This document shows, in pieces, positions 16,608 through 60,485 of a stretch of 62,076 nucleotides of DNA. Each line of letters starts with the position of its first letter. The first letter of the stretch is position 1. Origin of the DNA: a virus (lineage: Duplodnaviria > Caudoviricetes); the IMG/VR virus record IMGVR_UViG_3300028399_000007, positions 1 through 62,076 of that record; one strand, 5' to 3'. A model generated the notes under the pieces. It worked only from the letters and a program-made list of their open reading frames with translations. It did no database searches and had not been told where the DNA came from. Both the position numbers and the translations under genes were made by a program.

Positions 16608-18128
16608 CTACCTCCTGATATATGTAAAACTATTGGCTGACACTGTATAAGTACCCATTCCAATTCCAGTATTATAGACCATGTTCTCTGATCCAACCAT
16701 CCACGTAAGATCAGGGTGTGGTATAAACGGCACAGGCGGTTGCCAAGTAATAAAATCTACTGTATGCCTGTGCCTAGCTGACAGTAACTGCATTTTATGC
16801 AGTTGTGTCAATAAAACACTGTCAGATTTTATGAGATGCTTGGCTGAACTGCTTTTTAGGTAGTGGGTTTGCCCAATATCATTGGCGTCTGATATATGAA
16901 CATGCTTGGCGCTTTTTACAGATAGATTAGCATAGTACGACAGATAAACTATATCTGCTGTATGTCTGTGCCTAGCACTGCTTATGCCCAGTTCATGTGT
17001 CTGGTTTAGCGTATTTGAATCAGCCTTGTGCAAATGCTTGGCACTTTGTATGCGCAGATCACCAAGAACCTCTATGCCTATGTTATCTGCCTTATGTAAA
17101 TGCTTGGCACTGTTTACAGAAAGATTATGTACCTGTGATATTGCATTCTGATCTGCTTTTTGTAAATGCTTGGCGCTATCATTAAACAGATTGTGAGTTT
17201 GTACTAAATCATTCTGATCTGCTTTTTGTAAATGCTTGGCGCTATTTACGCTTAACTCATGCGTCTGGTTTAGTGCATTATTATCTGCTTTTTGTAAATG
17301 CTTGGCACTAGTGACAGTTAAATTATGCGTCTGTAAAATTTTGTTGCTATCTGCTTTTTGTAAATGCTTGGCAGATTTAACATCGAGGAAAGCAGCACTG
17401 TCTCCTGCCGTAAAAGCCTCAAACGCTATTACAGTAGCGGCAAATCTGGATACAGTCGTATTTTCTGACCATTCCTGCATTTCAATAAGGCCAGATACGA
17501 TTGACGATTTATAACTTGAAACTGTCCCGCCATAGGTACCGCCAAAATCCGCTATTTCAGTTTGCGCCGACCCCTGCGCTAATGCGCCTGTAGATTTTCC
17601 AGTCCAGCTAATGCCAAAGTAATCAACCACCAACACACTAGCAACGGGGCTAGTAACAGTAGCAGACATAATTTGCGACGATGAATAATTGCTAGTATCC
17701 GCTTTTTGGACGAAGATAGATGGATCAGCCTGTTTTACATTTGTTACTTCATGGACCTGCCAAATATGCCTTTGACACGCACCGTCATTATTGACGACTA
17801 TATCAATTACTGTAGAAGCCGCCGTTGTACTTGGCAATGCGCTGCCATATACAACGTAAACATCTGAAACAGACGAATAAGGACTTTCTTCAGCACGTAT
17901 CAAAGTGCCGACTTGATTAACGCCACTACCTATGCCGCTGTTTACACCGGGCGGATCTACTTGTATTGACGCTGTACCATTGTCAGGTTGGGATGAGTTG
18001 TCTTTTGAAAGATTTGAAATGACCAACATTCTGTTGGTATTTGAGGACGATATAACTACTGGTATGGTACTGCTTACAGTACCAAAAAGATTGGACGTAC
18101 CCAGTAGCTTTACTGCTGCAAATGCCAC
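16608..18128 (-). CDS. virion protein with ~10 His-containing ~22-aa repeats
   Basis: SAKHLQKADxNxLxQxHxLxV repeats in C-terminal half. Confidence 0.75.
   Translation of the reverse strand: MAFAAVKLLGTSNLFGTVSSTIPVVISSSNTNRMLVISNLSKDNSSQPDNGTASIQVDPPGVNSGIGSGVNQVGTLIRAEESPYSSVSDVYVVYGSALPSTTAASTVIDIVVNNDGACQRHIWQVHEVTNVKQADPSIFVQKADTSNYSSSQIMSATVTSPVASVLVVDYFGISWTGKSTGALAQGSAQTEIADFGGTYGGTVSSYKSSIVSGLIEMQEWSENTTVSRFAATVIAFEAFTAGDSAAFLDVKSAKHLQKADSNKILQTHNLTVTSAKHLQKADNNALNQTHELSVNSAKHLQKADQNDLVQTHNLFNDSAKHLQKADQNAISQVHNLSVNSAKHLHKADNIGIEVLGDLRIQSAKHLHKADSNTLNQTHELGISSARHRHTADIVYLSYYANLSVKSAKHVHISDANDIGQTHYLKSSSAKHLIKSDSVLLTQLHKMQLLSARHRHTVDFITWQPPVPFIPHPDLTWMVGSENMVYNTGIGMGTYTVSANSFTYIRR
16760..17375 (-). 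repeat. 66-bp coding tandem repeat
   Basis: ATCTGCTTTTTGTAAATGCTTGGC recurs at 17151, 17217, 17283, 17349, with degenerate copies further on. Confidence 0.85.
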
Positions 18129-30327: not shown

Positions 30328-33300
30328 CTAAGTCCCAAGTACCTTGATTTCTTTAACTGTAGCAGGTTTTTTGCCAAGTAGGCGGTATCTAGTTTCGTCA
30401 CCACAATTATGAACAATCGCACCGCTACGTAAAATAAAATGATGCGCATCAGGTACAGTTAAACAATACACATCATGCTTGCCTGATCTCTCTATTCTTA
30501 CGACCCCAACGCGCACTACATGGCCTGCTACAGCATCTAGTTTTTTGATATTTGTTAACAATGAATCTATTACCACATACTGCGCATATTCTTTCAACGT
30601 TATCGACGCCTGATCTAACCCTATACCTTGTTTTGCAAGCATTGGAACAGAATTTCGATGTTTTCTTACCGGCAATTTTAACCATATATTTTTTACCGCA
30701 CATGACACACTCTTTTTCAATCTCTCTATTAAGTGCACTGGCACAGTTTTTTTCGTACTGTTCCTTATGCCATTTTCTTCCTTCTTCTGAGCTATGCCAT
30801 TTCTTAGCTTGCTTACAAGCGTTTTTTTGATTTCTTTTAAGACGTTCCTTATTTTTCTCGCACATCCCATGAATGCGTAAATGCTTATCAGCCTCAATGA
30901 CTTCCAAATTATCAATGTCATTGTTTGCCCTGTTACCGTCAATATGGTGTACGTGGTATCCATTGGGTATTTTGCCGTGGTATTTTTCCCATACAACCCT
31001 ATGCAACCTTTTACCATTTTTCTGAAAATAGCTGCCACATAAATAATACCTTTCGCCACAAAATTCTTGGATTGTGCTGCTAATTTCTTTAACGTACATT
31101 TTTTATGTTCCTCATTTACCCCTGCAACAAAAATACAGTGCCCTACATTTTTTAAGTGCCGTGCTTCTACCCATCCTTGATCTGTAAAAAATAAATGATC
31201 TGGTGTACAACAAACACAAGACCCATCTTCAAAAAATACTTTTATAGTATCAGCATTGCTTTCAATCATCCTGCAATTTTCAAACTTTTTATAGCCGTCA
31301 ATTGTCAAAATCTTTGCACCGCTATTGCACAATGATTTTATAGGAATGAATCCTTTATCAGTTGCTATCTCCTCATCACCGTGAAAACAATGATCCTCAG
31401 CATCCGTGTCCACATCCTCGCGGTTCTTTTCCGCCCGTGGCAATACCGGCACAGTACGTATAAACCCATCATTACAAGTATTAAACACGAATAATCCCGG
31501 CTCTTCCATAGGCAATTCCAAGGATGCTGCTAACCGTGTACGCAATAGTTCCCATCCCGATACGCGCGATCCTGACGATTTATTAGCTTCTGTCCATTTA
31601 ACACCTACTGCACGCATATCATCTGCAATACAGTTGTCATTCTGATTGTCATAAATAGAGCTATCCGCTGGACCCGGTTTTACGCGACCGTATATGCCCA
31701 TCATCTTTTCCCGCTCTATGATCCCCTTAGCAATATCCTTGGCATTCATTTTCAAACCAACATTAGGTTCGCCTTTTTTCCATCCGTACCATTCACCGAT
31801 GCGGAACAATGTTTTTGCAGGCCACGCTCTTTTAGTGCCGTCGCGCAATATGGCTTCCGTACCATCGCTTTCCGCCCACCAGCCTACCGAAAACGGTCTG
31901 CTACTGCCCCAGTCAAATGATCGATCTATGTACCAGCTATCAGGGATCTTAAACGGCTCAATCACATGCACACTACGATCCCATACATCATCGAACATGC
32001 CGCCGCTAACAATGTCCCAATCACCCTCCAACATGGCACGGACCAGTTCAGGATCGCCAAGGCCGCTCAACCTGTCCTTATAGTCAGGATCATCAATCAT
32101 CATGGTCGGATTATCACTAAGGAACGCGGGGATGAACTGGCGCAACATACCGCCTTCCTTTTTTGGCATCCTGATTATCGTGTTTGGTTGTGCAATGTTT
32201 ACAAAATCCGCCTTTACCCAGTTATGACCTATGCCACCGGGGTTACTGCTATTTATGATCCTTGGAAAGCGATCTTTGTATTTATCAGGTAACACCAGAC
32301 CCGGCGCACGGACACGTGATCGCAAATAGGCGTAAATCGTTTTTGTGAACATAGTCAATTCATCTACTAACAATAAATGTATTTCAGAACCGTGGTAGTT
32401 CATGCGATCTTTTTCATGCTGGCAATGGCACAAAAAAATCTTGCTATTGTTCCAGAATGTGATAATGCCCTTACCCGTATTTATTTTTGCATGCCCTTCA
32501 TCGATCCAATCTGATAACAGGTTAAAAAATCCCTTTGGTCCCTCCATGTGGTTCTTCCACAGTTCAGGGTATGTGCGGCGAAACAAATAAACCTGTAAAC
32601 CGGGGATTTCCGCACACCACATGATCGCAGCTATGCGCATAAGGTGACTATTATGCGTAACGATAAAATCATTTGTTATGTATAAATTGTTTGGGTGAGA
32701 AACAGAAATACAGACAGTTTCACAATGCCCGGCGGGTTCTATCTTATCAAGATAAAGCCCCATTGACTGATGTTGTTTACTATTGCATCTCTCGGCTTTG
32801 CGCTTAACACGGAACATCCTTTGTGGTTCACGGATCTTTATCCTGAGCGTATAGGCTTTTTGCCCTTTTCTTTTTTCACCTTTATACACATAATTCGGTA
32901 TTTTTGATTTTAATGAAACAATAGCGCCTAACGATCTTGCCAAGTGCCTTACGTCATCAGCCAATTGCTTTGATACCGTTGTAAAATAGCAATCACCATC
33001 CTTATCAACAGTCCCGTCTGTGTCCATTAGACCCTGTAGTAAAGACCATCGATCTTCAACGCCGCCAAACAAGTAAATGCGCGGAATAAACTTACTATTT
33101 GCCAAACATCCGTAAACACCAAGATCAACCAAGTCATCATAAACAAGTTTTTTCGGTACCGTATATGACTTGGCTTTGTTGTTATTGTTTTTGCCGACAG
33201 GATTTAGCTTTTTATCATAGTTGTAAAAATCTGATAAAATGTTATTTATGTTATCAACTATCTCACGATCAGGCGTACAAAAAGTAGTAACGCCACTACG

Positions 33301-33846
33301 CAAGCACCCATCTCCTAACAACACGCCAAGCAAATACGGTTCTACGGATCGCTTAACGTGTTTTTTTGGTCCTGCATTCTCTCCATGTACGTTAAATGCA
33401 CATGGCTCAGATATAACAGGGATCGCGATCCTGTTTTTGCGTTTTGTGTTGCGCTGGTAAAACTCGTAAATTTCTTTTGTTGTCCATTTACGCGCCGATG
33501 CTTCACCATTAACAGGCACATTACCTATCTTCCTGCTTTTACCTGTCGTCCAAGCAAGCCAAATATGATCGCTATCAACAATGGTTTCACTACCATCGGA
33601 CCACGTTAACTTGTAAACTTTTTGCTTGCCTTTCGGGTAATAGCCAATAATTTTTTGCACTGTTCCATCAGTTGCACAAATTGCGTCGCCTACCTTTACA
33701 TCCCTAAATTTTCTCCACCCAAACGGCGTTAAGATAAAATCATCAAATCTCTGCCCTTTTCCGGGGCCTGCGCTTCCGCCGAAGAGGATTTCAGTTGCGG
33801 GGGAGTTGAAAACGTAGGCTTGCTTTGGATGAAATGAAAGATCCAT
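30328..33846 (-). CDS. terL: terminase large subunit with two inteins
   Basis: Walker A GGSAGPGK[intein]S, Walker B LLLVDE, SSNPGG, nuclease FDWG and EDH[intein]CGDETRY; start set at ATG 33846. Confidence 0.93.
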   Translation of the reverse strand: MDLSFHPKQAYVFNSPATEILFGGSAGPGKGQRFDDFILTPFGWRKFRDVKVGDAICATDGTVQKIIGYYPKGKQKVYKLTWSDGSETIVDSDHIWLAWTTGKSRKIGNVPVNGEASARKWTTKEIYEFYQRNTKRKNRIAIPVISEPCAFNVHGENAGPKKHVKRSVEPYLLGVLLGDGCLRSGVTTFCTPDREIVDNINNILSDFYNYDKKLNPVGKNNNNKAKSYTVPKKLVYDDLVDLGVYGCLANSKFIPRIYLFGGVEDRWSLLQGLMDTDGTVDKDGDCYFTTVSKQLADDVRHLARSLGAIVSLKSKIPNYVYKGEKRKGQKAYTLRIKIREPQRMFRVKRKAERCNSKQHQSMGLYLDKIEPAGHCETVCISVSHPNNLYITNDFIVTHNSHLMRIAAIMWCAEIPGLQVYLFRRTYPELWKNHMEGPKGFFNLLSDWIDEGHAKINTGKGIITFWNNSKIFLCHCQHEKDRMNYHGSEIHLLLVDELTMFTKTIYAYLRSRVRAPGLVLPDKYKDRFPRIINSSNPGGIGHNWVKADFVNIAQPNTIIRMPKKEGGMLRQFIPAFLSDNPTMMIDDPDYKDRLSGLGDPELVRAMLEGDWDIVSGGMFDDVWDRSVHVIEPFKIPDSWYIDRSFDWGSSRPFSVGWWAESDGTEAILRDGTKRAWPAKTLFRIGEWYGWKKGEPNVGLKMNAKDIAKGIIEREKMMGIYGRVKPGPADSSIYDNQNDNCIADDMRAVGVKWTEANKSSGSRVSGWELLRTRLAASLELPMEEPGLFVFNTCNDGFIRTVPVLPRAEKNREDVDTDAEDHCFHGDEEIATDKGFIPIKSLCNSGAKILTIDGYKKFENCRMIESNADTIKVFFEDGSCVCCTPDHLFFTDQGWVEARHLKNVGHCIFVAGVNEEHKKCTLKKLAAQSKNFVAKGIIYVAAIFRKMVKGCIGLYGKNTTAKYPMDTTYTILTVTGQTMTLIIWKSLRLISIYAFMGCARKIRNVLKEIKKTLVSKLRNGIAQKKEENGIRNSTKKTVPVHLIERLKKSVSCAVKNIWLKLPVRKHRNSVPMLAKQGIGLDQASITLKEYAQYVVIDSLLTNIKKLDAVAGHVVRVGVVRIERSGKHDVYCLTVPDAHHFILRSGAIVHNCGDETRYRLLGKKPATVKEIKVLGT
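30406..31389 (-). mobile_element. second TerL intein (328 aa) in nuclease domain
   Basis: CFHGD..CTPDH..DVYCLTV..IVHN|C. Confidence 0.85.
30473..31099 (-). CDS. HNH homing endonuclease nested out of frame inside intein 2
   Basis: LHRVVW..HVHHIDGNRANN..NL, two CxxC..CSxxC modules; own RBS GAGGA. Confidence 0.85.
   Translation of the reverse strand: MYVKEISSTIQEFCGERYYLCGSYFQKNGKRLHRVVWEKYHGKIPNGYHVHHIDGNRANNDIDNLEVIEADKHLRIHGMCEKNKERLKRNQKNACKQAKKWHSSEEGRKWHKEQYEKNCASALNREIEKECVMCGKKYMVKIAGKKTSKFCSNACKTRYRVRSGVDNVERICAVCGNRFIVNKYQKTRCCSRPCSARWGRKNREIRQA
32650..33756 (-). mobile_element. class 3-type intein with LAGLIDADG endonuclease in TerL P-loop (369 aa)
   Basis: Starts at Gly, DHIW, VCISV, VTHN|S; LLGVLLGDG and LQGLMDTDG. 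Confidence 0.85.
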
Positions 33847-33847
33847 A

Positions 33848-34051
33848 TCACTCGTCCGATTCTTTAGTGACAAATAAATACTTGCCGCATTCCGTGCATT
33901 TGATACGGCTTACATATCTGTGATCTCGCAAATCAACAAACAGGTAAAAAGAAAACGATCCACAACTACATTGGAAACAATAATCTTCAAATAATTCAAC
34001 TACGTTATCTTCATTCTTGTTCTTTTTCGCCATCATCATCACCGTCATCAA
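33848..34051 (-). CDS. small Zn-ribbon protein
   Basis: CSCG..CTECG. Confidence 0.5.
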   Translation of the reverse strand: MMTVMMMAKKNKNEDNVVELFEDYCFQCSCGSFSFYLFVDLRDHRYVSRIKCTECGKYLFVTKESDE

Positions 34052-37176: not shown

Positions 37177-37310
37177 CATGGGCTAGTTACAACACATGGT
37201 TTGGTTTACAATAGGTTTTGTAGCACCAACCATCTGTTGACTAGCCCTCGCAGTATGTGCTGTGCTATGAAAAGCCCCTTGCACCTACTGTGTGCTTGGG
37301 GCTTTTTTTA
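37177..37310 (+). ncRNA. candidate sRNA or attenuated leader of primase
   Basis: ~70-nt hairpin GGGCTAGTTA..TGACTAGCCC, then terminator AAGCCCC..GGGGCTTTTTTT. Confidence 0.45.
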
Positions 37311-37323
37311 TGGGGATTGGTTT

Positions 37324-39432
37324 ATGGGGTTTGGATCAGAAACGGAACCTGCCGCGCCAACGAAGCGCGAGATCCAACAATTTCAAAAAGCCATGCGCGA
37401 TGATCTGGCCCGTAGTGGTCTGATCGCATCCCATCTCAAAAAACTTCGCTATGAAGTTCTAACCCCGCAAGACTCACTATCTGAATTTGATTGGCCTAAC
37501 TGGTCATACCGTATCCCTTACATCGATCCAATCACAGGGGAAGATACAGGGTACCATCGCTATCGTTTCATGGAGGAGGTGGCTAATAGCAAGGGGAAAA
37601 TCGTCAAGTACATGCAACGCAGCGGTACAACACCGAGGCTTTATTTCCCACCTGTCTATACTCCAAAAAAATGGGCAACAATACTAAATGATCCAAGCCA
37701 ATTTATTGTGTTCACAGAAGGCGAGAAGAAAGCCGCTAAAGCCTGCGTGGAAGGATTGCCTACTATTGCCCTAGGTGGTGTATCATCATTTAGCTGCAAA
37801 CGATTAGGGCAACGGTTAATAGATGACTTCAAACTGATCACGCTAAAGGATCGCCGCGTTGAAATTTGTTTTGATTCAGATTTCCGCACCAATGAAGATG
37901 TGATGCGGGAACTGCGGCGATTTGCCAAGGAACTCTATCGCGAAGGTGCGGTAGTCCTGTTCCGCTGGTTACCTGACGACTATGACAAAATCGGCTTGGA
38001 CGATTTTTTTGCCGCTGGTGCGCAGTTGACAGATTATGAACAACTGCCCTTTGACGCTTATGAACAATGCAAGGAAGTATTGGAACTCAACAACGAGCTA
38101 GCCTATATAAAAAACGTAAACGCATTTTATAATATAAAAACAGGGACGTGGTACAAAACTAAACCCGCCTTGGTGGATATGGGGTATGCCAACCGCGTTA
38201 TCATCGATCCTGAGACAGATCGTGAGCATAACGTCGCTGCCTTATGGTTAAAATCCAAGATGCGCCGCACCCATAAAAGGCTGGTATATGAACCGATGCC
38301 AATCTATGAGCCGTTTGAATTCCCGTTGATAACAGACGACAATGAATTGAACTTGTGGCGTGGTTGGGGCGCTTACCCTGAGCCGGGCAACTTGGATGAT
38401 TTCAACAGGCTATTGGATTACGTGTTCGGTGATGATCCGGATCAACGTGAAAATTTTTTGAAGTGGGCGGCATACCCGATCCAGTATCCGGGCACCAAAC
38501 TGACCACATCCTTTATGATCCAGAGCCCGTTACAGGGATCGGGCAAAAGTTCACTAGGGTTAATACTAGGTGATATATACGGCGGTAATTTCAGTAACGT
38601 AGATGCAGGCAGTCTATTTGAAAGTTTTAACTCATGGGCACGTAACAAGCAGTTTGTACTGGGTGATGAGATCACAGCGGATGCGTTCAATAAAAGACGT
38701 AGCTCAGATAAGATAAAGAACATGATCACGCGCGAAACGATCAGCATAAACGAAAAATACAAGCCCATTTACGAAGTAAAAGACTGTATCAATTACCTGT
38801 TAACGTCCAACCACCCCGATGCGCTGTACTTGGAGGAGTTTGACCGGCGCTTTTATGTGCATACCATCATGGCAAAATCCGTCCCGCCCAATTTAGGCAA
38901 ATGGGTAGATCGTTTCCGGTTTGGCAATGGTCAAAAAGGCCGATCCGCACTGATGCATTACCTGTTAACCGAAGTCGATGTATCTGATTTCAACCCCAAG
39001 GGCGAGGCCAAGGATTCATTTTCCAAGGAAATGATGCGCGAAGCGGGGCGGTCCGATCTGGAACAATGGGCTTGGCAACTGGCTAATGATCCTGACGCGG
39101 CGCTGCACATAACCGGCAAGACGTTTGATCGGGATATTTATACAACGGCGCAATTGCTAAAGATATACGATCCTTTGGGTAAAAAGAACGTGACGCTGCA
39201 TGCGCTTGGCAAGGCGCTGAAAAAATACCAGTTATTCTACAAACAAATCAGGTTTGATAACGGTAAACGCGAAAAATTGATCCCTATACGCAACAGGGAC
39301 AAGTGGATGAAATGCAAGTCCGCTAAATGGGCCGAACATTATGAACAATCCAAGGTCCATGATCTTGATACACGGCGCACGCCGATCAATGAGAAAAACG
39401 GGAATAAAAACAAGAAAAAAGATCAGACATAG
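37324..39432 (+). CDS. primase-helicase (DUF3854/TOPRIM-like plus SF3-type helicase)
   Basis: TEGEKKA, FDSD, GLDD; QGSGKS, FVLGDE, LLTSNH, DRRF. Confidence 0.88.
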   Translation: MGFGSETEPAAPTKREIQQFQKAMRDDLARSGLIASHLKKLRYEVLTPQDSLSEFDWPNWSYRIPYIDPITGEDTGYHRYRFMEEVANSKGKIVKYMQRSGTTPRLYFPPVYTPKKWATILNDPSQFIVFTEGEKKAAKACVEGLPTIALGGVSSFSCKRLGQRLIDDFKLITLKDRRVEICFDSDFRTNEDVMRELRRFAKELYREGAVVLFRWLPDDYDKIGLDDFFAAGAQLTDYEQLPFDAYEQCKEVLELNNELAYIKNVNAFYNIKTGTWYKTKPALVDMGYANRVIIDPETDREHNVAALWLKSKMRRTHKRLVYEPMPIYEPFEFPLITDDNELNLWRGWGAYPEPGNLDDFNRLLDYVFGDDPDQRENFLKWAAYPIQYPGTKLTTSFMIQSPLQGSGKSSLGLILGDIYGGNFSNVDAGSLFESFNSWARNKQFVLGDEITADAFNKRRSSDKIKNMITRETISINEKYKPIYEVKDCINYLLTSNHPDALYLEEFDRRFYVHTIMAKSVPPNLGKWVDRFRFGNGQKGRSALMHYLLTEVDVSDFNPKGEAKDSFSKEMMREAGRSDLEQWAWQLANDPDAALHITGKTFDRDIYTTAQLLKIYDPLGKKNVTLHALGKALKKYQLFYKQIRFDNGKREKLIPIRNRDKWMKCKSAKWAEHYEQSKVHDLDTRRTPINEKNGNKNKKKDQT

Positions 39433-39877
39433 TATTTGATATTATCACCTATTAAGATCGTGCCATGTAGTGAGAAAGTAACGTCAGGATCGAGCGATCC
39501 ACTTTGCCGAATGTGCCAATAAGCGGGAGTGAGACAGGTCCGTTGACAGGGACAAAGAAATGTATCGAGACAAGCCGATTTATAGTAACAGTGGTGATGA
39601 TCGAACCATGTTCTATTATAGTGACACGCCACGAGATTGAGACACCCTTATTGTCAGTAACACTAACTGTGATCGAAACACCTATGCGCAGCGTACCATC
39701 GAGGTGGATTGAAACATAATTAACGATAGTAACATGCTGCTTGATTGAAACGGAGTACATAACAGTAACACGGTGCTTGATTGAAACACTGTACACGATA
39801 GCAACACGTTGGTTGATTGAGACACGTCCTTTGATAGTTCGGATACTGAGATCGACCCATACACTTTGACAGTAGCA
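39421..39877 (+). repeat. TIGR-like dual-repeat array 1 (~12 units of 36 nt)
   Basis: Alternating GATYGARACA and GAYAGTRACA 10-mers separated by variable 8-nt spacers, 18-nt phase. Confidence 0.85.
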
Positions 39878-39900
39878 AAGCAACAGAGGAATTTTGAGAT

Positions 39901-40125
39901 ATGCACGTTGATCCCATAATTGACCAACACGCGCCAGATTGCCTGTTAGTGCAGTTCCACGCGATCTGTTGCAAGTGGGAGAAGTGCGTTTATTTCGGAA
40001 CTAGGAAAGAAAAAGCCGGGTATTATCGTGAATTGAAGCAGTTCTATAAAAAACACGGATTGCCTGATGACACGATAGCCCCGCCTTGCAATTGTGGTAG
40101 AAAAATATGCTATCTATTAACTTGA
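39901..40125 (+). CDS. small Cys/His-rich protein between arrays
   Basis: ORF with six Cys in CxxxxHxxCCxxxxC and CxC clusters. Confidence 0.4.
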   Translation: MHVDPIIDQHAPDCLLVQFHAICCKWEKCVYFGTRKEKAGYYRELKQFYKKHGLPDDTIAPPCNCGRKICYLLT

Positions 40126-40138
40126 AAGAGGTACCAAG

Positions 40139-40492
40139 ATGCGTAGAAAAAAGAATGCCGAGACTGCGGAAAGTACGTTATTTTCAGAAACACAAACGCG
40201 AACCGTTTACACTGTGGAGATCAAGAACCCGTACAACGTGTGGGAGGACGTGAGGAACCCCAGCTATATGGTGCCTGTGATCCCCAGTAGCGTTGCATCC
40301 TGTAATGACAACCACCCGCTGATGAAGCATCACAGGATGTTGACCTATGATCAGGCCATGGCGATAGCATGGTCGATCAAGTCGCAAAACGAGCCTTCTG
40401 TGCGCGGCGTGCGGATCGTGGGCTATGAAATGGAATGGTCCGTCAAGGCCAATAGTGCGCCGGTCTATGAGCAGGAGATCGGCGGAGACTAG
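40139..40492 (+). CDS. hypothetical protein between arrays
   Basis: AGAGG RBS. Confidence 0.65.
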   Translation: MRRKKNAETAESTLFSETQTRTVYTVEIKNPYNVWEDVRNPSYMVPVIPSSVASCNDNHPLMKHHRMLTYDQAMAIAWSIKSQNEPSVRGVRIVGYEMEWSVKANSAPVYEQEIGGD

Positions 40493-40498
40493 GCTAAT

Positions 40499-40885
40499 GA
40501 TCAGGCAGGGTGTCTGAGTGTACCGGAACAGATAATCGAGTCGCGAAGATGTATGGTAACAATGGCAATGATCGAGGCAAAAAAAGATAGCGTGCCGTTG
40601 AATATGATCGAGCCTTTGAAAGCGATTGGAACACGTGAATTGAGCTAAACAACCGTTTAGATAGTGACACAGTTTATGATTGAAACAGGTGCCCCGATAA
40701 CGACAGGCGCGAAGATTGAAACAAAAAATCCGATAGCATCACAATCCCGAATTGAAACGCAGAAAGATAGTGCACCACCGAATACGATTGAAACAGTGGA
40801 AAAGACAGTATCAGAAACGACGATTGAGACAAAAAGGCAAATTGCACCACTATCGCTGATCGAACCACCACCAGTTATTGCAACG
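40499..40885 (+). repeat. TIGR-like dual-repeat array 2 (~11 units of 36 nt)
   Basis: Same alternating repeats (GATTGAAACA at 40678, 40714, 40786; GATAGTGACA at 40660) with 8-nt spacers. Confidence 0.85.
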
Positions 40886-40904
40886 GATATGGGGAGTGCT
40901 ATTT

Positions 40905-41282
40905 ATGGGTTATGGGTACATCGGCCAACCGTACAGCCATGAGGATGAGGCGGTGCGGCAGAATCGCTATGAGTTTGCATTGTCATTTGTGGCTGCCAAG
41001 ACACGTGCCGGGGAGATAGTCTATTCCCCTATCGTGCACTTCCACAATGCGGCTGTAGAACACAACCTGCCGGAAGGTGGGGCGATCTGGCGGCCTGTGA
41101 ACAGGGCTATGCTATTGGCCGCCAACAGGTTAATCGTGTTGGCCCTGCCCGGCTGGTCCTGCTCGCCGGGGCTTGAGTTTGAGATGAAGCTGGCGCGTGA
41201 GCACAGGATCCCGATCAAGTACGTGATCCCTGATCACAAGATGCAGACCCAGCTAGGCGTGGAACTGATCACATTTGATTAA
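40905..41282 (+). CDS. DUF1937-like / nucleoside deoxyribosyltransferase-like protein
   Basis: YIGQPYSH, VYSPIVHFH, LPGW..SPG..E. Confidence 0.7.
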   Translation: MGYGYIGQPYSHEDEAVRQNRYEFALSFVAAKTRAGEIVYSPIVHFHNAAVEHNLPEGGAIWRPVNRAMLLAANRLIVLALPGWSCSPGLEFEMKLAREHRIPIKYVIPDHKMQTQLGVELITFD

Positions 41283-41473
41283 CCCTTGTCAAATGGATCA
41301 GCATCGACCGTTTCAAGCGCCAGCGCCTCAACCTGCTTGGCATAATCCAGCATTTCCTCAATAGCATCCACGTCGCTGTAGTAAGCCGTTTCCTCGTCCA
41401 GCACAGTGCTGGCATGCGCCTTGATTTCCTGTGCCAGCTTGGCAATGGCTTTGATATGTTGTGTTGATCTCAT
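41279..41473 (-). CDS. hypothetical protein
   Basis: Part of coupled minus-strand early cassette. Confidence 0.6.
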   Translation of the reverse strand: MRSTQHIKAIAKLAQEIKAHASTVLDEETAYYSDVDAIEEMLDYAKQVEALALETVDADPFDKG

Positions 41474-41700
41474 CGGCCTGTCCCCATTACAACAACATAG
41501 ACCCCGCTATGATCGCGATCTTGAAACACCTGCAAAACACGGCGACCCTTGAGAGTGCGTGCAATTGCATCGGGCGGGGTTTCAAGTATGTCGTATCGTC
41601 CGCGTAAAAATCCACGTACATAAGATATAACAGTATCCCACATGCTAGCCTCATATTCACCAACTTCTATGTTGTTGACATACGTCTTTACCTTGTACAT
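41470..41700 (-). CDS. hypothetical protein
   Basis: Part of minus-strand early cassette. Confidence 0.6.
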   Translation of the reverse strand: MYKVKTYVNNIEVGEYEASMWDTVISYVRGFLRGRYDILETPPDAIARTLKGRRVLQVFQDRDHSGVYVVVMGTGR

Positions 41701-42769: not shown

Positions 42770-43570
42770 CCGTGCTCGGGGCAGAAAGCCGTGGCAACAC
42801 GGTGCAAGGGGCGAAGCCAACATAGTCCCGCTTCTCACGAAGTAAGCCCGAGCAAGCCGAGTCCGCGGGGCATGCCCCGGCCTCCGTTCCTGACGGGGGA
42901 TAGCGGCGAGTGATTAGGGCTGTGTTAGGCGTAATAATCAAAGGCCATGCCTCATCGTGAGGTGAGGCGCAGCACGAAAGCGAGTCGGGATAGGACAAAG
43001 GGTAGGTCGGAAGTCCGAGCGGGCACGCAAGGGCGATGGCCAGTCAATACGGTCGTGGTCGAAGGATCACAATGGTCGTTGAAGACAGCCGATTACCGGG
43101 CACGGGAAAGGTACGAGGCGTGTGGCATACTGTATCTTCACGGATACGGCACCACTGATCGGCGCACGTCTTGGTTGGTAGCGTATGTAGCTCAGTTGGT
43201 AGAGCGCATCCCCTGAAAGGATGGTGTCGCTGGTTCAAATCCAGCCTAACGCGCATATTGTGGGAATATGTAAAATGCAAAGACGCCGATCAGCGTGTTA
43301 TGAAAGTGACCTAATCCTGTGGCCTTATGGCAACACAGGGTTCCCAAGGCCGCAAGCTGAGGGAACTTCGTCAGGACACGCACTCAGGTCGTTTAGCGGC
43401 GAACTGGGGTAGTTGAGCGGCGGAGTAGTAACACGGCATAGGTCTATTGCCTGACCTGTAAACAAAACGGCAGTCATGTCTGCTTACGACAGTGCGCTTT
43501 GCGGCTGGCGTGGACAACCCGGCAACAACAGGCCGCACCCTGTTGGTACTCTGGGGAAAGGGCAGATCAA
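42770..43570 (+). ncRNA. large structured noncoding RNA with embedded tRNA-like element (GOLLD-like candidate)
   Basis: No credible ORF; many stems and GNRA loops; bounded by promoter and terminator. Confidence 0.55.
43181..43253 (+). tRNA. atypical tRNA (anticodon loop CCTGAAA, nominal TGA)
   Basis: GCTC/GAGC D arm, CATCC/GGATG stem, GCTGG-TTCAAAT-CCAGC T arm; two acceptor mismatches, short variable loop. Confidence 0.6.
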
Positions 43571-43598
43571 ACCCGGCTTAATCTCAGCCGGGTTTTTT
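43570..43598 (+). terminator. intrinsic terminator
   Basis: CCCGGCT-loop-AGCCGGG followed by T6. Confidence 0.8.
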
Positions 43599-48635: not shown

Positions 48636-48896
48636 ATGCAAATGACAAAATACACTGATCTAAAACCGCCTTTTGATCCACGTTTGGACGTGGATTCACA
48701 ACGATATGTTGTTTATAACGTGGAAGAAAAACGTGTCATGCGTAGTACGCAAGATATTTCACAAGCCGTGCGCATTTGTGTGCGGCTAAATGGTGACAAG
48801 GAAATCGCTGAATACGCCATTGCCGACAAGGATGCAAATACTTACCTTAGTGGCTGGCGCAAATTGCGGGAGGTGAAAAATGACTACAGCCAATGA
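48636..48896 (+). CDS. hypothetical protein
   Basis: Overlaps start of next gene. Confidence 0.6.
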   Translation: MQMTKYTDLKPPFDPRLDVDSQRYVVYNVEEKRVMRSTQDISQAVRICVRLNGDKEIAEYAIADKDANTYLSGWRKLREVKNDYSQ

Positions 48897-49710
48897 ACTA
48901 GAAAGTGCCAGCCGGATCGCCAATAGCACGATCAAGCAAATCAAGGAACGCGGTACTTGTAGCCGTGAAGAAATCCGGTTCCTTGTGGATGCCTATTACC
49001 AAGTACAAAAGATGCGGATCGCACTGGGTAATCAGATATTTGCATTGACTGAATCCAATGAACCGCATGAGATCAGTGACTGGCTGTTCAGCCAGTTCAA
49101 ACTGATCGAAAGCCAGATCAGCCGATCCCTGAAAGCATTTTGTGAGACCACAAAGCCCGGTCAATGGCTATTGTCAATCACGGGCATAGGCCCTGTGTTG
49201 GCGGCCAATTTTCTTGCCCATCTTGACGTGACAAAATCAGAAACAGCGGGCGGATTCTGGCGGTTCGCCGGGTTGGATCCAACACTGGAATGGAAGAAAG
49301 GTTGTAAGCGTCCGTTTAACGCGCGGCTTAAAACGGCTTGTTGGAAAGCGGGTGAATCATTTTGCAAGGTACAGAACCGTGATTCGGACGTTTACGGCAA
49401 GGTCTATGCTGAGCGTAAGGCACTGGAAATACAACGCAATGACAGGCTTGAATTTGCCGATCAGGCGAAGGAAAAACTGGAGAAGTTTAACATCGGCAAG
49501 GACACGGATGCCTACAAGCATTATGCTGAGGGTAAGCTGCCGCCTGCGCATATCGACCAGCGTGCCAAGCGTTATGCGGTTAAGCTATTCCTGTCACATC
49601 TGCATCATGTAATGTATGAATGCGAGCATGGGCGCAAACCACCCAAACCCTACGTCATAGAACACATGGGGCATGCGCATTACGTCGCCCCGCCAAACTG
49701 GCCATTGTAA
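48880..49710 (+). CDS. TasA-like Nop-domain RNA-binding protein (IS110 C-terminal-like, no nuclease domain)
   Basis: LVDAYYQVQKMRI..NQ, WLLSITGIGPVLAA, FWRFAGL, FNARLK, HIDQRAKRYAVKLFLSHL; no RuvC/DEDD or HNH domain. Confidence 0.8.
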   Translation: MTTANELESASRIANSTIKQIKERGTCSREEIRFLVDAYYQVQKMRIALGNQIFALTESNEPHEISDWLFSQFKLIESQISRSLKAFCETTKPGQWLLSITGIGPVLAANFLAHLDVTKSETAGGFWRFAGLDPTLEWKKGCKRPFNARLKTACWKAGESFCKVQNRDSDVYGKVYAERKALEIQRNDRLEFADQAKEKLEKFNIGKDTDAYKHYAEGKLPPAHIDQRAKRYAVKLFLSHLHHVMYECEHGRKPPKPYVIEHMGHAHYVAPPNWPL

Positions 49711-51279: not shown

Positions 51280-54051
51280 ATGCCAAAAATACCGTTAGCT
51301 GTTATAGACTTTGAGACGCTGCGCATTGAGCCGCGCCCTGATTACCCACCAGAACCAGTGGGCCTAGCTGTGTTGGAGCCCGGTAAGCGCCCTGTGTACT
51401 TGGCATGGGGACACCCTTTGAAAAATAACTGTACTTTCGATGATGCTTACAAAACTTTGCATCGGATTTATGAAAGGTATTGTGTCGTTATGCACAATGC
51501 CGTTTTTGATCTTGAAGTCGCTGAAAAGTTTTTTGATCTGCCGCTAGTGCCGCCACATGGGTTTTGTGACACGATGCTTGAAGCATTTTTGTACAACCCG
51601 CGTTTCCCTGATATGAAATTGAAAAATCTGGCGGATAACCTGCTGGGTATGCCGCCTGTTGAAGAACAGCGATTGCACGAATGGATCCTGAGTCATGTTT
51701 TTACAAGTCAAAAAAGTGGCAAGGGCAGCATAAAAATATGGGATCACAGACCAAAAGGGCTGTATGCCATACCGCCGTCACAAGCCGGTGGGTTCATAGG
51801 CTATGCACCCGGTGACTTGGTGGGCAGATACGCCAAGGGCGACGTGGTGCGCACTAAGAAACTTCACAATCTTTTCATGCCCAAGATCAAAAAACTAGGC
51901 ATGATGGAACAGTGGGATGTTGAACATCGTGTTTCTATTAAGGCACTGGAAATGTCGCGCAGCGGTGTGCGTATAGACGTTGATAATCTGGCACCTGATC
52001 TTGAAACCGCCAAGAAAAAACTGGCTACTGCCGAAAGGAACGTTTACAAAAAATTGGGTGAGATAAATCTTAACAGCCCCAAGCAAAAAATAGAAGCATT
52101 TGAAAGCAGGGGTTTGGTGTCTGAATGGGAGTACACTGACAAAGGAAACCCAAAGACAAGTATAGACTCACTGATGCGCGTGTGTACGGATAAAAAACTT
52201 GTCAAGGATTTGAACATATATAGCAAGTACACCAAGATCATAGGCACCTATATGCAGCCTTGGCTGGCGTCTGCATTGAAGAACAACGGGTATTTCTACC
52301 CATGGTATAACACGATAAAGGGGGAAAATGATCGTGGTACCTATACAGGCAGGTTCAGTTCTAATTTTCAACAGGTGCCGCGTCGCGTCGAGGACGTATC
52401 ACTAAAAGGTTTACCATTCCTGCGCAACTACGTTATAGCAGATAAAAAATCGCACGTGCTATTTAACCGTGATTTTTGTTTTTCTGATGATACAGAAGTT
52501 TTAACAGATCGTGGTTGGATGTTATTCAAAGATTTAGGTAAAAATGAGCTAGTCGCTCAGTATAAAAATGGTGTTATCAGTTATGCCAAACCGCTTGCTT
52601 ATCAAAAAGAAAGATTTACAGGTAAAATGGTGCATATACATAGTCCCAAAAGTTGTAATATGTTGGTGAGTCCAGATCACCAATGCCTGCAACTGGACTA
52701 CAATAACCGGCCTGTGAAAATACGTGCCGTAGGTTATAGGCTTGGTCATTATAAGCAAGTTGTATCAGGCATAGTTAAAAATAAACAGTCCATTGATATT
52801 TCAATTGACTTGTTAAAATTATCTGTAGCAATACAAGCCGACGGCAAAATACTTTTTCAAAATACCGGCGTAAAAATTTCTTTCTATTTGAAAAAGGAAA
52901 GGAAAATAAAACGGCTTGAAGCATTGTTAAATGCGCTCGATATTCCTTACATAAAAAAAGCAATGGTAAGTAAAAAAGGCTTTTTCAGTTTCCTTTTTTA
53001 CATGCCTGATGACGTCAACAAAATTCTTGATACAGGCACAAAACAGTTTAAGCGTAGTCTGCTAAAACTTTCTTATGAAAACAGGCTGCTGTTTTTGAAA
53101 GAGCTTGGATATTGGGATGGATCAATCATTGGTGAAAGTTGGCAATACTTCAATACAAATTTAGCTAGTTTTGATTTACTGCAAGAAATGTGCGTCATAA
53201 CGGGTGTCAAATCAGTATTGAAGTACATGAAACGCGATGAGGTTAGAAAATGCTGCGGTTTGTTATATATGACTGTTAAGCACGCCGTTGATACAAAAAT
53301 GTTTAGCAAGGATTTTGTTGAATATGATGGCTATATGTATTGTGTCACTATGCCGCAAGGAACGGTTATTGTTAGACGTGGTGGCAACGCATTTATAACA
53401 GGACAATGTGGCCAAGAAGTACGGATCCTTGCGCATTTTGAAGATGGTGTGCTGTTATCCGCATTCAATAAAGATCCGGAATTGGACGGGCATAGTTTTG
53501 TCAATGATCTAGTAACCGAACTAACAGGCATTGACTACGGACGCTCTGCAATCAAAGCGTGCAATTTTTTGATCATCTATGGTGGCGGTGTTTACGCACT
53601 ATCACAAAATTTAGGGATCTCCTATGATCAGGCAGATGAGATATACAAGGCGCATGGTGATGCGCTTGTCGGTTTAGGTGAGTTGAAAAATGAGCTAAGG
53701 TTATTGGCACGCAGGGGAGAGATGTTTAAGACTGCTGGCGGTAGATGGTATGACTTTGAGGAAGGTTTTGAATATGTTGCGTTGAACACGTTGATACAGG
53801 GCAGTGCTGCTGATCATAGTAAACGTGCGTTATTGAATATATCCGATATGATAGAAACAAAAGGATATGACGCTAGGCTCATACTAACTGTGCATGACGA
53901 GTTTATGATCAGCGGCCCTGCAAGATGCAAAAAGAAATTTATGACGGATTTTCGTGAAGCAATGGAATATGATGAATTGTTTGATCTGCCTATGTTAACT
54001 GATGGCAAGATCGGCAAGTGTTGGGGGAAGATGGAAAAAGTTAACTATTAG
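51280..54051 (+). CDS. family A DNA polymerase with 3'-5' exonuclease and intein
   Basis: DFET, HNAVFD, TGRFSS, DF[intein]CGQEVRILAH, K..NF..IYG, IQGSAAD, VHDE. Confidence 0.92.
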   Translation: MPKIPLAVIDFETLRIEPRPDYPPEPVGLAVLEPGKRPVYLAWGHPLKNNCTFDDAYKTLHRIYERYCVVMHNAVFDLEVAEKFFDLPLVPPHGFCDTMLEAFLYNPRFPDMKLKNLADNLLGMPPVEEQRLHEWILSHVFTSQKSGKGSIKIWDHRPKGLYAIPPSQAGGFIGYAPGDLVGRYAKGDVVRTKKLHNLFMPKIKKLGMMEQWDVEHRVSIKALEMSRSGVRIDVDNLAPDLETAKKKLATAERNVYKKLGEINLNSPKQKIEAFESRGLVSEWEYTDKGNPKTSIDSLMRVCTDKKLVKDLNIYSKYTKIIGTYMQPWLASALKNNGYFYPWYNTIKGENDRGTYTGRFSSNFQQVPRRVEDVSLKGLPFLRNYVIADKKSHVLFNRDFCFSDDTEVLTDRGWMLFKDLGKNELVAQYKNGVISYAKPLAYQKERFTGKMVHIHSPKSCNMLVSPDHQCLQLDYNNRPVKIRAVGYRLGHYKQVVSGIVKNKQSIDISIDLLKLSVAIQADGKILFQNTGVKISFYLKKERKIKRLEALLNALDIPYIKKAMVSKKGFFSFLFYMPDDVNKILDTGTKQFKRSLLKLSYENRLLFLKELGYWDGSIIGESWQYFNTNLASFDLLQEMCVITGVKSVLKYMKRDEVRKCCGLLYMTVKHAVDTKMFSKDFVEYDGYMYCVTMPQGTVIVRRGGNAFITGQCGQEVRILAHFEDGVLLSAFNKDPELDGHSFVNDLVTELTGIDYGRSAIKACNFLIIYGGGVYALSQNLGISYDQADEIYKAHGDALVGLGELKNELRLLARRGEMFKTAGGRWYDFEEGFEYVALNTLIQGSAADHSKRALLNISDMIETKGYDARLILTVHDEFMISGPARCKKKFMTDFREAMEYDELFDLPMLTDGKIGKCWGKMEKVNY
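52477..53406 (+). mobile_element. intein in polymerase motif A (310 aa), ending in Gly-Gln
   Basis: CFSDDTEVLT..SPDH..MYCVT..ITGQ|C; LAGLIDADG-like AIQADG and GYWDGS. Confidence 0.85.
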
Positions 54052-58909: not shown

Positions 58910-58986
58910 GTGAGTATAGCTCAGTCTGGTAGAGCACTCGTTTTGGGAAAGAGTGGTCGCAGGTTCAAATCCTGCTGCCCGCACCA
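58910..58986 (+). tRNA. tRNA-Pro(TGG) with encoded CCA
   Basis: Cloverleaf, loop TTTGGGA, GGTTCAAATCC; one mismatch each in acceptor and anticodon stems. Confidence 0.8.
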
Positions 58987-59609: not shown

Positions 59610-59755
59610 GGCAGCCTGCCGGGCGAAAACCGCAAACGCGGCCCCTCAGTCTGGAACGCTGTACCGGAGTTGCACGCCGGTATGCACCGGGATACCCCGG
59701 CTCCGAGTGCGCCAGCGTTGGGTGAATGCATAAGTAGTCCGGCAGGTTGCCGCCA
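59610..59755 (+). ncRNA. structured RNA closed by 15-bp stem and ending GCCA
   Basis: GGCAGCCTGCCGGGC pairs with GTCCGGCAGGTTGCC (two G-U). Confidence 0.45.
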
Positions 59756-59771
59756 TTTAGTGAGTAAAAAA

Positions 59772-60485
59772 ATGAGTTTAGAACATTTATATAAATTTGA
59801 TTGGTACGTGTCACATCAAGCGTGGCTCAACAAAGAAGGCTATATGGCCCATGATCATCGTGGGACTAAGCCGCAAAAAGCTGATCTGCGCGGCACTGAT
59901 CTGCGCGGTGCTGATCTACTAGGTGCTAAGCTGTGCGATGCCAATTTACGTGATGCCAATTTACGTGATGCAAATTTGCGTGGGTCTAATCTGCGCAATG
60001 CCGATCTAAGCTGCGCCAATTTTAACAATGCTGATCTGTGCTTTGCCAGTCTATACGACACAAATTTACACTATGCTAATCTGCGTCATGCCAATCTAAG
60101 CTACGCTAATTTGTGCGGCGCTGATCTGCGCCATGCTGATTTGCGCGGCGCTGATCTGCGCCATGCTGATTTGCGTGATACCGATCTAAGCTACGCTAAT
60201 TTGTGCGGCGCTGATCTGCGCTATGCTGATTTGCGCGGCGCTGATCTGCGCCATGCTGATTTGCGTAACACCATCGGTAACGGACGTGAGATCATTACAA
60301 TCTTAACAGATAAATGGATAGTTAATATAACAAAAGAATTCATGACAGTTGGTTGTGAGCATTACAGCATTAAAGACTGGATGAGCTTTGATGATGATCG
60401 TATTTCTAAGATGGACCCCTGCGCACTTCATTGGTCGCGTATCTGGAAGCCGATTATTAAACAAATAATAGAGGCAACCAAATAG
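59772..60485 (+). CDS. pentapeptide repeat protein
   Basis: A(D/N)Lxx repeats, C-terminal VGCE..W domain; internal ~90-bp duplication. Confidence 0.9.
   Translation: MSLEHLYKFDWYVSHQAWLNKEGYMAHDHRGTKPQKADLRGTDLRGADLLGAKLCDANLRDANLRDANLRGSNLRNADLSCANFNNADLCFASLYDTNLHYANLRHANLSYANLCGADLRHADLRGADLRHADLRDTDLSYANLCGADLRYADLRGADLRHADLRNTIGNGREIITILTDKWIVNITKEFMTVGCEHYSIKDWMSFDDDRISKMDPCALHWSRIWKPIIKQIIEATK

What the first reader, a model, noticed from the sequence alone, without database searches (positions are those of the whole stretch)
39421..39877. TIGR-like tandem guide-RNA array 1 directly after primase
Seen: near-strict 18-nt phase of 10-nt semi-conserved blocks and 8-nt unique blocks. Two repeat types alternate, e.g. 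GATTGAAACA-taattaac-GATAGTAACA-tgctgctt-GATTGAAACG-gagtacat-AACAGTAACA-cggtgctt-GATTGAAACA-ctgtacac-GATAGCAACA-cgttggtt-GATTGAGACA. This gives ~12 units of 36 nt. The first base of each repeat varies, so spacers may be 9 nt. Known: TIGR arrays have a 36-nt dual-repeat, dual-spacer unit processed into guides for Nop-domain Tas proteins. Inference: this is a guide array for the gene at 48880.
Basis: partly seen in the sequence, partly recalled or inferred. Interest (0 to 1): 0.93.

Follow-up and report, generated by a model that had tools for sequence, protein, structure and literature searches.

The report
Phage TIGR guide-RNA array, far from tasA
This stretch is a genuine TIGR guide-RNA array in a phage genome, one of two, and its nuclease-free Tas protein is encoded about 8-9 kb away rather than next to it; the system type is already known.

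Summary
On the + strand, 39438-39895 holds about 25 ten-nt repeats in an 18-nt phase (two 17-nt slips). Two repeat types alternate, GATTGAAACA and GATAGTAACA, separated by unique 8-nt blocks, giving 12 units of 36 nt. A second array of 11 units lies at 40498-40903. No other phased chain exists in the 62-kb phage record.

- The 276-aa gene at 48880-49710 is the only tas gene in the record.
- It matches solved TaTasR (9MTY) and SpTasH and has no nuclease domain, so it is TasA type.
- It keeps the Y/H pre-tigRNA processing dyad as Y258/H265.
- The same two repeats form arrays directly downstream of 48-55%-identical tas genes in four other viral loci, two with identical arrays.

Two features are unusual. 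The arrays lie 8.0-9.0 kb upstream of tas, whereas 34 of 35 viral relatives have an array within 618 nt. They also sit between ORFs with no terminator of their own.

No target was found in the phage itself. Verdict: a new member of the known TIGR-TasA kind, of moderate interest.

The parts
37201..39432 (+). Primase-like gene (743 aa), immediately upstream of array 1
   Evidence: Pfam DUF3854 (1.8e-16), DUF5906 (7.4e-20) and VapE-like. The best phage matches are annotated primase, at 34-35% identity.
39438..39895 (+). TIGR array 1 (the finding): 12 units of 36 nt (two of 35). Edge repeat consensus GATTGAAACA, loop repeat GATAGTAACA, 8-nt spacers. It ends in a weak 3'-truncated edge remnant just before the ATG at 39901.
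39901..40125 (+). ORF of 74 aa between the arrays, Cys-rich, no family
   Evidence: No relative in the tas loci.
40139..40492 (+). ORF of 117 aa between the arrays, no family
   Evidence: No relative found in viral contigs.
40498..40903 (+). TIGR array 2: 11 units of 36 nt, same repeats and strand, no phase slip. [quoted passage not shown]
40903..41282 (+). DUF1937 / nucleoside 2-deoxyribosyltransferase-like gene after array 2. The listed TTG start at 40878 overlaps the array; the ATG at 40903 is more likely.
   Evidence: the family match starts at residue 14 of the 40878 ORF.
43569..43595 (+). Terminator-like hairpin (10 pairs, then a T run) between the arrays and tas
   Evidence: This is a consensus scan only.
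48880..49710 (+). tasA: 276-aa nuclease-less Tas protein with the Y258/H265 processing dyad. A GGAGGTG ribosome-binding site lies 5 nt before the ATG.

Best explanation
Array 1 (39438-39895, + strand) is a dual-repeat TIGR array of a tailed phage. With array 2 (40498-40903) it encodes about 23 guide RNAs for the phage's single TasA protein (48880-49710).

Inferred mechanism, by homology to characterised TIGR-Tas systems:
1. The arrays are transcribed rightward as part of the primase / small-ORF transcription unit. They have no promoter-like or terminator-like site of their own.
2. TasA dimers bind each edge/loop repeat pair.
3. The C-terminal Y258/H265 dyad cuts inside each edge repeat. This releases 36-nt tigRNAs of the form half edge, 8-nt spacer A, loop repeat, 8-nt spacer B, half edge.
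4. Each tigRNA directs the TasA dimer to a 16-bp DNA site, where spacer A pairs with one strand and spacer B with the adjacent part of the other strand.
5. TasA has no nuclease domain, so it binds and bends the site and blocks transcription or replication rather than cutting.

The targets are not in the 62 kb of phage genome in hand. They are therefore most likely in the host or in competing mobile elements.

Shown here: the array anatomy, Tas family membership, the dyad, and the link between this repeat pair and tas genes. Inferred: transcription, processing, binding, repression and the nature of the targets.
For: Anatomy: strict 18/36-nt phase, two alternating repeats, unique 8-nt blocks. 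The periodicity is far above background.

Effector:
- phmmer versus PDB gives 9mty_A at E 1.9e-14 and SpTasH at 2.1e-8. The profile of 20 relatives gives 2.1e-27 and 7.3e-15, then IS621 at 9.5e-6. 9MTY is the TasR RNP of Faure et al..
- phrog_4285 matches full length at 1.5e-50.
- The match to TaTasR starts at its residue 116-123 and at our residue 37-41, so there is no room for a RuvC or HNH domain. Pfam finds no nuclease domain.
- Y258 and H265 align with SpTasH Y289 and H296, the catalytic residues for pre-tigRNA maturation. H265 is conserved in 20 of 20 relatives; position 258 is Y in 16 of 20 and F in 4.

Cognate pairing:
- An exact-pattern scan of viral contigs found 13 stretches. Four are arrays (L046, L049, and L039 = L047 with identical arrays) and 9 are single matches; the 4 of those that I printed are one shared non-array sequence.
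- All 4 arrays lie directly downstream of a tas gene 48-55% identical to ours.
- L039/L047 and L049 end in a truncated GATTG-type edge followed by a hairpin and T run, and L046 ends in a truncated GATTG. This identifies GATTGAAACA as the edge repeat.
- There is only one tas gene in the record.

Broader family: relatives have 10-nt repeats such as GAGCGAGCCA and GAGAGCACCA with 8-nt spacers, sharing G1, A2, G5, C9 and A10 with ours. The validated Salicola phage array has the same 10+8+10+8 layout.

Other points: the array RNA is not structured (z = +1.40; 90 of 100 shuffles fold at least as well), as expected for the dual-repeat rather than the stem-loop type. TasA acting as an RNA-guided repressor, and 36-nt tigRNAs bound by TasA, come (sections read).
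Against: - The arrays are 7,977 nt (array 2) and 8,985 nt (array 1) upstream of tas. Arrays lie within 618 nt of tas in 34 of 35 viral relatives and within 380 nt in 27 of 45 cellular loci; the other 18 show no array with my detector.
- A terminator-like hairpin at 43569-43595 lies between the arrays and tas.
- Neither array ends in a rho-independent terminator, and no sigma-70-like promoter precedes array 1.
- The repeats are degenerate. By my crude criterion (C9A10 of the first edge, A2/G5/C9/A10 of the loop, A2/G5 of the next edge), only 7 of 12 units in array 1 and 4 of 11 in array 2 are intact, against 19 of 28 in L046.
- Most repeats end in ACA rather than the CCA box C described for TasR.
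- No RNA data exist, and no target was found.
Confidence: 0.87

Rival explanations
1. The arrays are real TIGR arrays in origin but are now decaying relics. They were separated from tas by rearrangement and no longer yield functional guides.
For: They are 8-9 kb from tas, against at most 618 nt in 34 of 35 viral relatives. Only 7 of 12 and 4 of 11 units keep all the positions I scored. There is no terminator and no promoter-like site. The terminal units are degenerate.
Against: The 18-nt phase holds with only two 1-nt slips over 25 repeats in array 1 and none over 22-23 repeats in array 2, although many repeat positions are substituted. Neutral decay should also bring indels. tasA is intact with a strong ribosome-binding site and the Y/H dyad. 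A tas-adjacent array in an Eubacteriales MAG (L054) shows the same mixture of CCA- and ACA-ending edge variants and has 37-nt slips, so this level of degeneracy is normal for arrays in the canonical position. L033 independently has arrays about 8.8 kb from its tas.
Confidence: 0.08
2. The 18-nt repeats are protein-binding iterons of a replication origin placed after the primase gene and act as DNA, not as RNA guides.
For: The position is directly after a primase-like gene. The repeats are short, direct and evenly spaced. No data on RNA are available.
Against: The same two repeats, in the same alternation and spacing, sit next to tas genes in 4 of 4 other arrays found, and our primase query matched none of the tas loci held. 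Only one viral relative of the primase was found, at 27% identity, so this cannot be checked in kin. About 48 repeats in two blocks with unique 8-nt inserts and a strict dual 36-nt unit fit guide arrays better than iterons.
Confidence: 0.03
3. The region encodes a repeat protein: the minus-strand ORF 39452-39883 (143 aa) is translated as a 6-residue repeat.
For: That ORF spans almost the whole of array 1.
Against: In array 2 all six frames carry 2-14 stops. In 16 of the 17 relatives' arrays I examined all six frames also carry stops, the exceptions being L013 (+1 frame) and L034 (-0 frame) with one open frame each. Conservation falls in a 10+8 nt block pattern, not on codon positions. The predicted product is a low-complexity V/S/I-rich string with no family. 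It would run opposite to every neighbouring gene.
Confidence: 0.02

Closest known systems
Dual-repeat TIGR-TasA systems (Faure et al. 2025, PMC12045711, sections read; Xu et al. 2026 bioRxiv 10.64898/2026.09.09.750476, sections read), e.g. FpTasA of Flavonifractor plautii
   Same: Solo-Nop Tas protein without a nuclease. Array of two alternating short repeats with short spacers and a 36-nt unit. Phage-borne. Y/H processing loop present.
   Different: The arrays are 8-9 kb from tas, on the far side of a terminator-like site. They are split in two by two ORFs, wedged between genes without a terminator, and most repeats end in ACA rather than CCA. Nothing is tested experimentally here.
SpTIGR-TasH of Salicola phage CGphi29 (NC_020844; solved structures 9W03 and others)
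   Same: 10-nt repeats with 8-nt spacers, in a phage genome. The Nop domain aligns at 26% identity (E 2.1e-8). The catalytic Y289/H296 align with Y258/H265.
   Different: SpTasH carries an N-terminal HNH nuclease and cuts DNA. Its array directly follows the gene and ends in a terminator. Its repeats are AAGACAACCA and AAGCGAGCCA.
IMG/VR contigs with the identical repeat pair (L046, L049, L039 = L047)
   Same: Same edge and loop repeats, 8-nt spacers, TasA 48-55% identical.
   Different: Their arrays abut the tas stop codon and, in L039/L047 and L049, end in a terminator. L046 has 28 cleaner units. No spacers are shared with ours by eye.
L033 (IMG/VR), the only other relative with distant arrays
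   Same: Related repeats (GAAAGTAnCA and GAATRAATCA), 8-nt spacers, two arrays separated by a small ORF, about 8.8 kb from tas. The C-terminal half of its Tas is 64% identical to ours.
   Different: Its arrays are downstream of tas, not upstream. Its tas carries a ~65-aa insertion. One search found no match other than tas in this locus for the 25 window genes I queried.
CRISPR arrays, including orphan arrays distant from cas genes
   Same: Repeat-spacer guide arrays processed into unit-length guides. Arrays can work in trans from a distance (established knowledge, recalled).
   Different: CRISPR uses a single repeat type of 25-36 nt and one long spacer per unit pairing with one strand. TIGR uses two short spacers that each pair with a different strand, needs no PAM, and has no known adaptation genes.

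Membership tests
TIGR array, dual-repeat type | Two distinct alternating 8-12-nt repeats separated by spacers of about 8-9 nt, giving a 36-nt unit repeated many times (definition read; 16 nt of spacer per unit in SpTIGR) | tested here: met
   10+8+10+8 nt. There are 12 units in array 1 and 11 in array 2.
TIGR array, dual-repeat type | A Tas (Nop-domain family) protein is encoded with the array | tested here: met
   One tas gene in the record, matching TaTasR and SpTasH. It is 8-9 kb away, which is atypical.
TIGR array, dual-repeat type | The array lies next to tas: upstream, downstream, flanking or inside | tested here: not met
   The nearest array ends 7,977 nt before the tas start, and no phased repeats lie near tas. 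This is a typical feature rather than a mechanistic requirement. L033 shares the exception.
TIGR array, dual-repeat type | Box D at the repeat start and box C at the repeat end, alike in edge and loop repeats (UG...CCA in TasR arrays) | tested here: inconclusive
   Edge and loop share G1, A2, G5, C9 and A10, as do relatives' repeats. Most end in ACA, some in CCA. Which bases TasA of this clade reads is not known to me.
TIGR array, dual-repeat type | [quoted passage not shown] | tested here: not met
   There is a truncated edge remnant (GAGTG in array 2, a weaker one in array 1) but no terminator-like site. Same-repeat arrays L039/L047 and L049 do have one.
TIGR array, dual-repeat type | Transcribed and processed into 36-nt tigRNAs bound by Tas | not testable with these tools
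   No run on record as RNA was listed. This needs small-RNA sequencing.
Tas protein, dual-repeat-binding | C-terminal Y/H catalytic dyad for pre-tigRNA cleavage | tested here: met
   Y258 and H265 align with SpTasH Y289 and H296. H is conserved in 20 of 20 relatives and Y in 16 of 20.
TasA subtype | Nop domain and coiled coil only, with no HNH or RuvC domain | tested here: met
   The protein is 276 aa. The alignment to TaTasR begins at its residue 116-123 and to the SpTasH PDB chain at residue 68. Pfam finds no nuclease family.
TIGR array, stem-loop type | Palindromic stems flanking each spacer pair | tested here: not met
   The array RNA folds no better than shuffles (z = +1.40). TasA has the Y/H loop, which stem-loop clades lack.

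The most novel reading that the evidence does not exclude
TIGR arrays can be uncoupled from their effector gene. Here and in L033 they sit 8-9 kb from tas, inside another transcription unit, wedged between protein-coding genes. TasA would then act in trans and carve its guides out of a polycistronic replication-module mRNA. That would sever the primase message from the downstream ORFs and couple guide production to the regulation of those genes. If distant arrays are common, they could also account for part of the many tas loci in which no array has been found. In print that is about two thirds of 20,096 loci; here it is 18 of 45 cellular loci.
Probability: 0.2. Interest if true: 0.6.

Novelty: new member of a known kind. 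Interest (0 to 1): 0.38.

Why it matters
TIGR-Tas is a recently described family of RNA-guided DNA-binding systems. Its natural targets, how arrays grow, and its role in phages are open questions according to the papers read.

This locus offers a TasA system in a long phage record (62 kb, CheckV estimate 76% complete) with about 23 guides. At up to 1 mismatch none of the guides matches the phage itself. That argues against self-regulation as the main role and points to host or rival-element targets.

It also shows that arrays can lie far from tas and inside an operon. Array-finding pipelines that look only around tas may miss such arrays. The arrangement raises the testable idea that guide processing cuts a polycistronic mRNA. 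The system type itself is not new.

Tried and rejected
Self-targeting. I searched the whole window, both strands, for tandem targets of adjacent spacers in both possible geometries (spacer A followed by the reverse complement of B, and the reverse complement of A followed by B).
- First run: 39 adjacent pairs gave 0 hits at 0-1 mismatch and 2 hits at 2 mismatches. Thirty control sets of non-adjacent pairings averaged 4.3 (sd 2.1) at 2 mismatches.
- Second run: 45 pairs including the phase-shifted end units, with gaps of 0-2 nt, gave 0 hits at up to 1 mismatch, against a control mean of 0.65.
- Self-targeting is rejected for the 62 kb in hand. The record is estimated 76% complete.
- I could not read the exact target geometry because figures are not held. 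From the text ('8-nt 3' overhangs' and the C-5 rule), I infer that each spacer pairs with the 3' half of its strand. The two sentences on the cut side disagree, so both geometries were tested.

Array growth by unit duplication. Neighbouring spacers are not significantly more alike than random pairs: p about 0.21 in array 1, 0.57-0.82 in array 2 and 0.74-0.88 in L046. The three similar spacer B's at 39735-39814 are therefore anecdotal.

Kin of the phage. The primase query found one viral locus at 27% identity. The 117-aa ORF found none. blastn of the array against named phages found nothing. Portal and primase matches in named phages are at most 41% identical and their hosts are scattered. The host is therefore unknown, and host targets could not be searched. 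Single 16-nt patterns in the large collections would give only chance hits, so I did not spend scans on them.

Other negative or unavailable results.
- Rfam: no family matched in 39000-41500 at E up to 1.
- No ParB-like gene lies next to tasA.
- Expression: no RNA holder was listed. The single listed run (X1, DNA, Logan contigs, labelled a hydrothermal vent metagenome) may be the source of the record.
- Supplements are closed. Table S1 and figs S4/S5 of Faure et al., and the TIGRSafari resource, may already list this contig or this repeat type, and Fig. 1d of Xu et al. may show distant arrays. I could not check. A full-text search for 'orphan array' or 'distant from' together with TIGR terms found neither phrase in the 5 papers that met the threshold, and 'orphan' occurs 0 times in Xu et al..
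Full report
WHAT IS THERE. The window is a whole virus record of 62,076 nt in one contig. IMG/VR classes it as linear and CheckV estimates it 76% complete. It is a tailed phage. Portal, head-morphogenesis, tape-measure, tail and terminase genes lie on the minus strand between about 4 and 36 kb. A rightward replication module runs from 37.2 kb: primase-like gene, family A DNA polymerase, helicase, PD-(D/E)XK nuclease.

The primase-like gene (37201-39432; DUF3854 + DUF5906) stops at 39430-39432. From 39438/39456 to 39868 the + strand carries 10-nt repeats every 18 nt, with two 17-nt steps. Two types alternate. One has consensus GATTGAAACA (variants GATCGAGACA, GAGCGATCCA and others). The other has consensus GATAGTAACA. 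The 8 nt between them are unique. This gives 12 units of edge, spacer, loop, spacer, edge.

IS IT MORE THAN CHANCE. Yes.
- The window-wide lag-36 mean is 0.274 (sd 0.039), and the peak here is 0.588.
- The dual-repeat pattern with up to 3 mismatches occurs 8 times against 0.01 expected, and only in two places.
- Chains of at least 3 phased repeats occur nowhere else.

The second place is a sister array at 40498-40903: same strand, same repeats, 11 units, no phase slip. Two ORFs without any family (74 and 117 aa) lie between the arrays. A DUF1937 gene follows array 2. Gaps between arrays and genes are 5-24 nt. No promoter-like or terminator-like site lies at either array.

THE PROTEIN AT 48880. 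The 276-aa product has a strong ribosome-binding site.
- It matches PDB 9mty_A at E 1.9e-14 and SpTasH chains at 2.1e-8. With a profile of 20 relatives the values are 2.1e-27 and 7.3e-15, followed by the IS110-family transposases IS621 and ISCro4. 9MTY is the TasR ribonucleoprotein of Faure et al..
- Pfam sees only the IS110 C-terminal domain, weakly. PHROGs has the family as phrog_4285, labelled 'transposase' (E 1.5e-50).
- The alignments start about 37-41 residues into our protein and at residue 116-123 of TaTasR. No nuclease domain is present, so this is the TasA architecture (definition read).
- Aligned with SpTasH from the Salicola phage record, Y258 and H265 fall on Y289 and H296. The NAR 2026 paper (passages read) names these as the catalytic residues for pre-tigRNA maturation. 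Xu et al. 2026 (section read) describe the dyad as conserved in dual-repeat systems and absent in stem-loop ones. H265 is invariant in 20 of 20 relatives; position 258 is Y in 16 and F in 4.
- It is the only tas gene in the record.

ARE ARRAY AND PROTEIN A PAIR. An exact scan of IMG/VR for the repeat pair returned 13 stretches. Nine are single matches; the 4 of them that I printed (L040, L041, L045, L050) are one shared sequence without any array, and the other 5 I judged only by a lag-36 scan. Four are arrays: L046 with 28 clean units, L049, and L039 = L047 with identical arrays. Each of the four lies directly downstream of a tas gene that is 48-55% identical to ours. L039/L047 and L049 end with a truncated GATTG-type repeat followed by a hairpin and T run, and L046 ends with a truncated GATTG. 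By the published description, that marks GATTGAAACA as the edge repeat and GATAGTAACA as the loop repeat.

More distant relatives (35 viral loci, 37-65% identity) have repeats such as GAGCGAGCCA and GAGAGCACCA with 8-nt spacers. These share G1, A2, G5, C9 and A10 with ours. The experimentally validated Salicola phage array has the same 10+8+10+8 layout. An Eubacteriales MAG (L054) has a tas-adjacent array that mixes CCA- and ACA-ending edges and has 37-nt slips. The degeneracy seen in our arrays is therefore within the range of arrays in the canonical position.

WHAT IS UNUSUAL.
- In 34 of 35 viral relatives an array lies within 618 nt of tas.
- In 27 of 45 cellular loci an array lies within 380 nt. 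The other 18 show none with my simple detector, and none has a distant-only array within the flanks held.
- Here the arrays end 7,977 and 8,985 nt before tas, with about 15 ORFs, a tRNA-Ser and a terminator-like hairpin at 43569-43595 in between.
- The one relative with the same peculiarity is L033. It has related repeats and two arrays split by a small ORF, 8.8 kb from a tas whose C-terminal half is 64% identical to ours.
- In the text I could read, arrays are described as upstream of, downstream of, flanking or inside tas. I found no mention of distant arrays, but figures and supplements were not visible.

RIVALS.
- Minus-strand ORF. A 143-aa minus-strand ORF spans array 1. All six frames are closed in array 2, and in 16 of the 17 relatives' arrays I examined all six frames carry stops (L013 and L034 each keep one open frame). 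Conservation follows a 10+8 block pattern, not codons.
- Iterons of a replication origin. These do not explain why the same repeats accompany tas, and none of the tas loci then held matched our primase query.
- Relic arrays. These cannot be excluded. However, the phase is kept almost without indels despite many substitutions, and tasA is intact.

MECHANISM (INFERRED). The arrays are probably transcribed with the primase unit. TasA dimers bind edge/loop pairs and cut within the edge repeats through Y258/H265. The resulting 36-nt tigRNAs guide TasA to 16-bp sites, with the two spacers pairing to opposite strands. TasA then blocks transcription or replication without cleavage, as shown for another TasA by Xu et al.. 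The array RNA is unstructured (z = +1.40), which fits the dual-repeat type.

TARGETS. No tandem target exists in the phage record at up to 1 mismatch, in either geometry and with gaps of 0-2 nt. At 2 mismatches, hits are at or below the control level. Targets are therefore probably host or rival-element DNA. The host is unknown.

VERDICT. The system belongs to a kind published in 2025, with thousands of arrays catalogued since, so it is a new member and not a new kind. Its interest lies in the displaced, operon-embedded, split arrays and in the long phage context for a TasA system.

Noticed in passing
window 40498-40903 (+): Second TIGR array with the same repeats: 11 units, no phase slip, between the 117-aa ORF and a DUF1937 gene.
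   Followed up: yes
window 30328-33873 (-): The large terminase ORF is 1181 aa and carries Intein_splicing, LAGLIDADG_3 and Hom_end hits beside Terminase_6N. It is probably interrupted by one or two inteins.
   Followed up: partly
window 51280-54051 (+): In the family A DNA polymerase ORF of 923 aa, residues ~386-714 match PHROGs of unrelated enzymes (PhoH-like, ribonucleotide reductase, thymidylate synthase). That is the usual signature of a shared intein. Pfam did not confirm it at E up to 0.001.
   Followed up: partly
window 59670-60485 (+): Pentapeptide-repeat protein (Pfam 6.7e-42). It causes the 15/30/45/90-nt tandem repeats seen by TRF.
   Followed up: partly
window 17085-17372, inside ORF 16608-18128 (-): A 66-nt tandem repeat (4.4 copies, 74% matches) inside a 506-aa structural-module ORF with no Pfam or PHROG family.
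   Followed up: no
window 43181-43254 and 58910-58986 (+): Phage-encoded tRNA-Ser(tga) and tRNA-Pro(tgg). The first lies between the arrays and tas, just before a terminator-like hairpin at 43569-43595.
   Followed up: no
L033 10402-10598; L031 9145-10001; L036 10387-11660: The tas genes of three relatives match ours in two pieces separated by about 0.2, 0.85 and 1.27 kb. In L033 the frame stays open (370-aa ORF). The others may hold introns, inteins or intragenic arrays.
   Followed up: no
L046 1786-2800: In this 28-unit array, near-identical spacer B sequences recur at three non-adjacent units (gagtagat, cgagtaga, tgagtaga) and two more are alike (tgtcaagc, agtcaagt). Several guides may aim at related sites.
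   Followed up: no
L055, L057, L077, L080, L089 and 13 other genome-contig loci: 18 of 45 tas loci in cellular genomes, many of them Bryobacterales/Solibacteraceae MAGs, show no 34-38-nt periodic array in the flanks held (up to 10 kb each side) with my detector. Their arrays may be distant, degenerate or absent.
   Followed up: partly
window 39735-39814: Three consecutive spacer B's (tgctgctt, cggtgctt, cgttggtt) and two spacer A's (gagtacat, ctgtacac) resemble each other. This explains the 75% TRF match. Over the whole arrays the adjacency similarity is not significant.
   Followed up: yes
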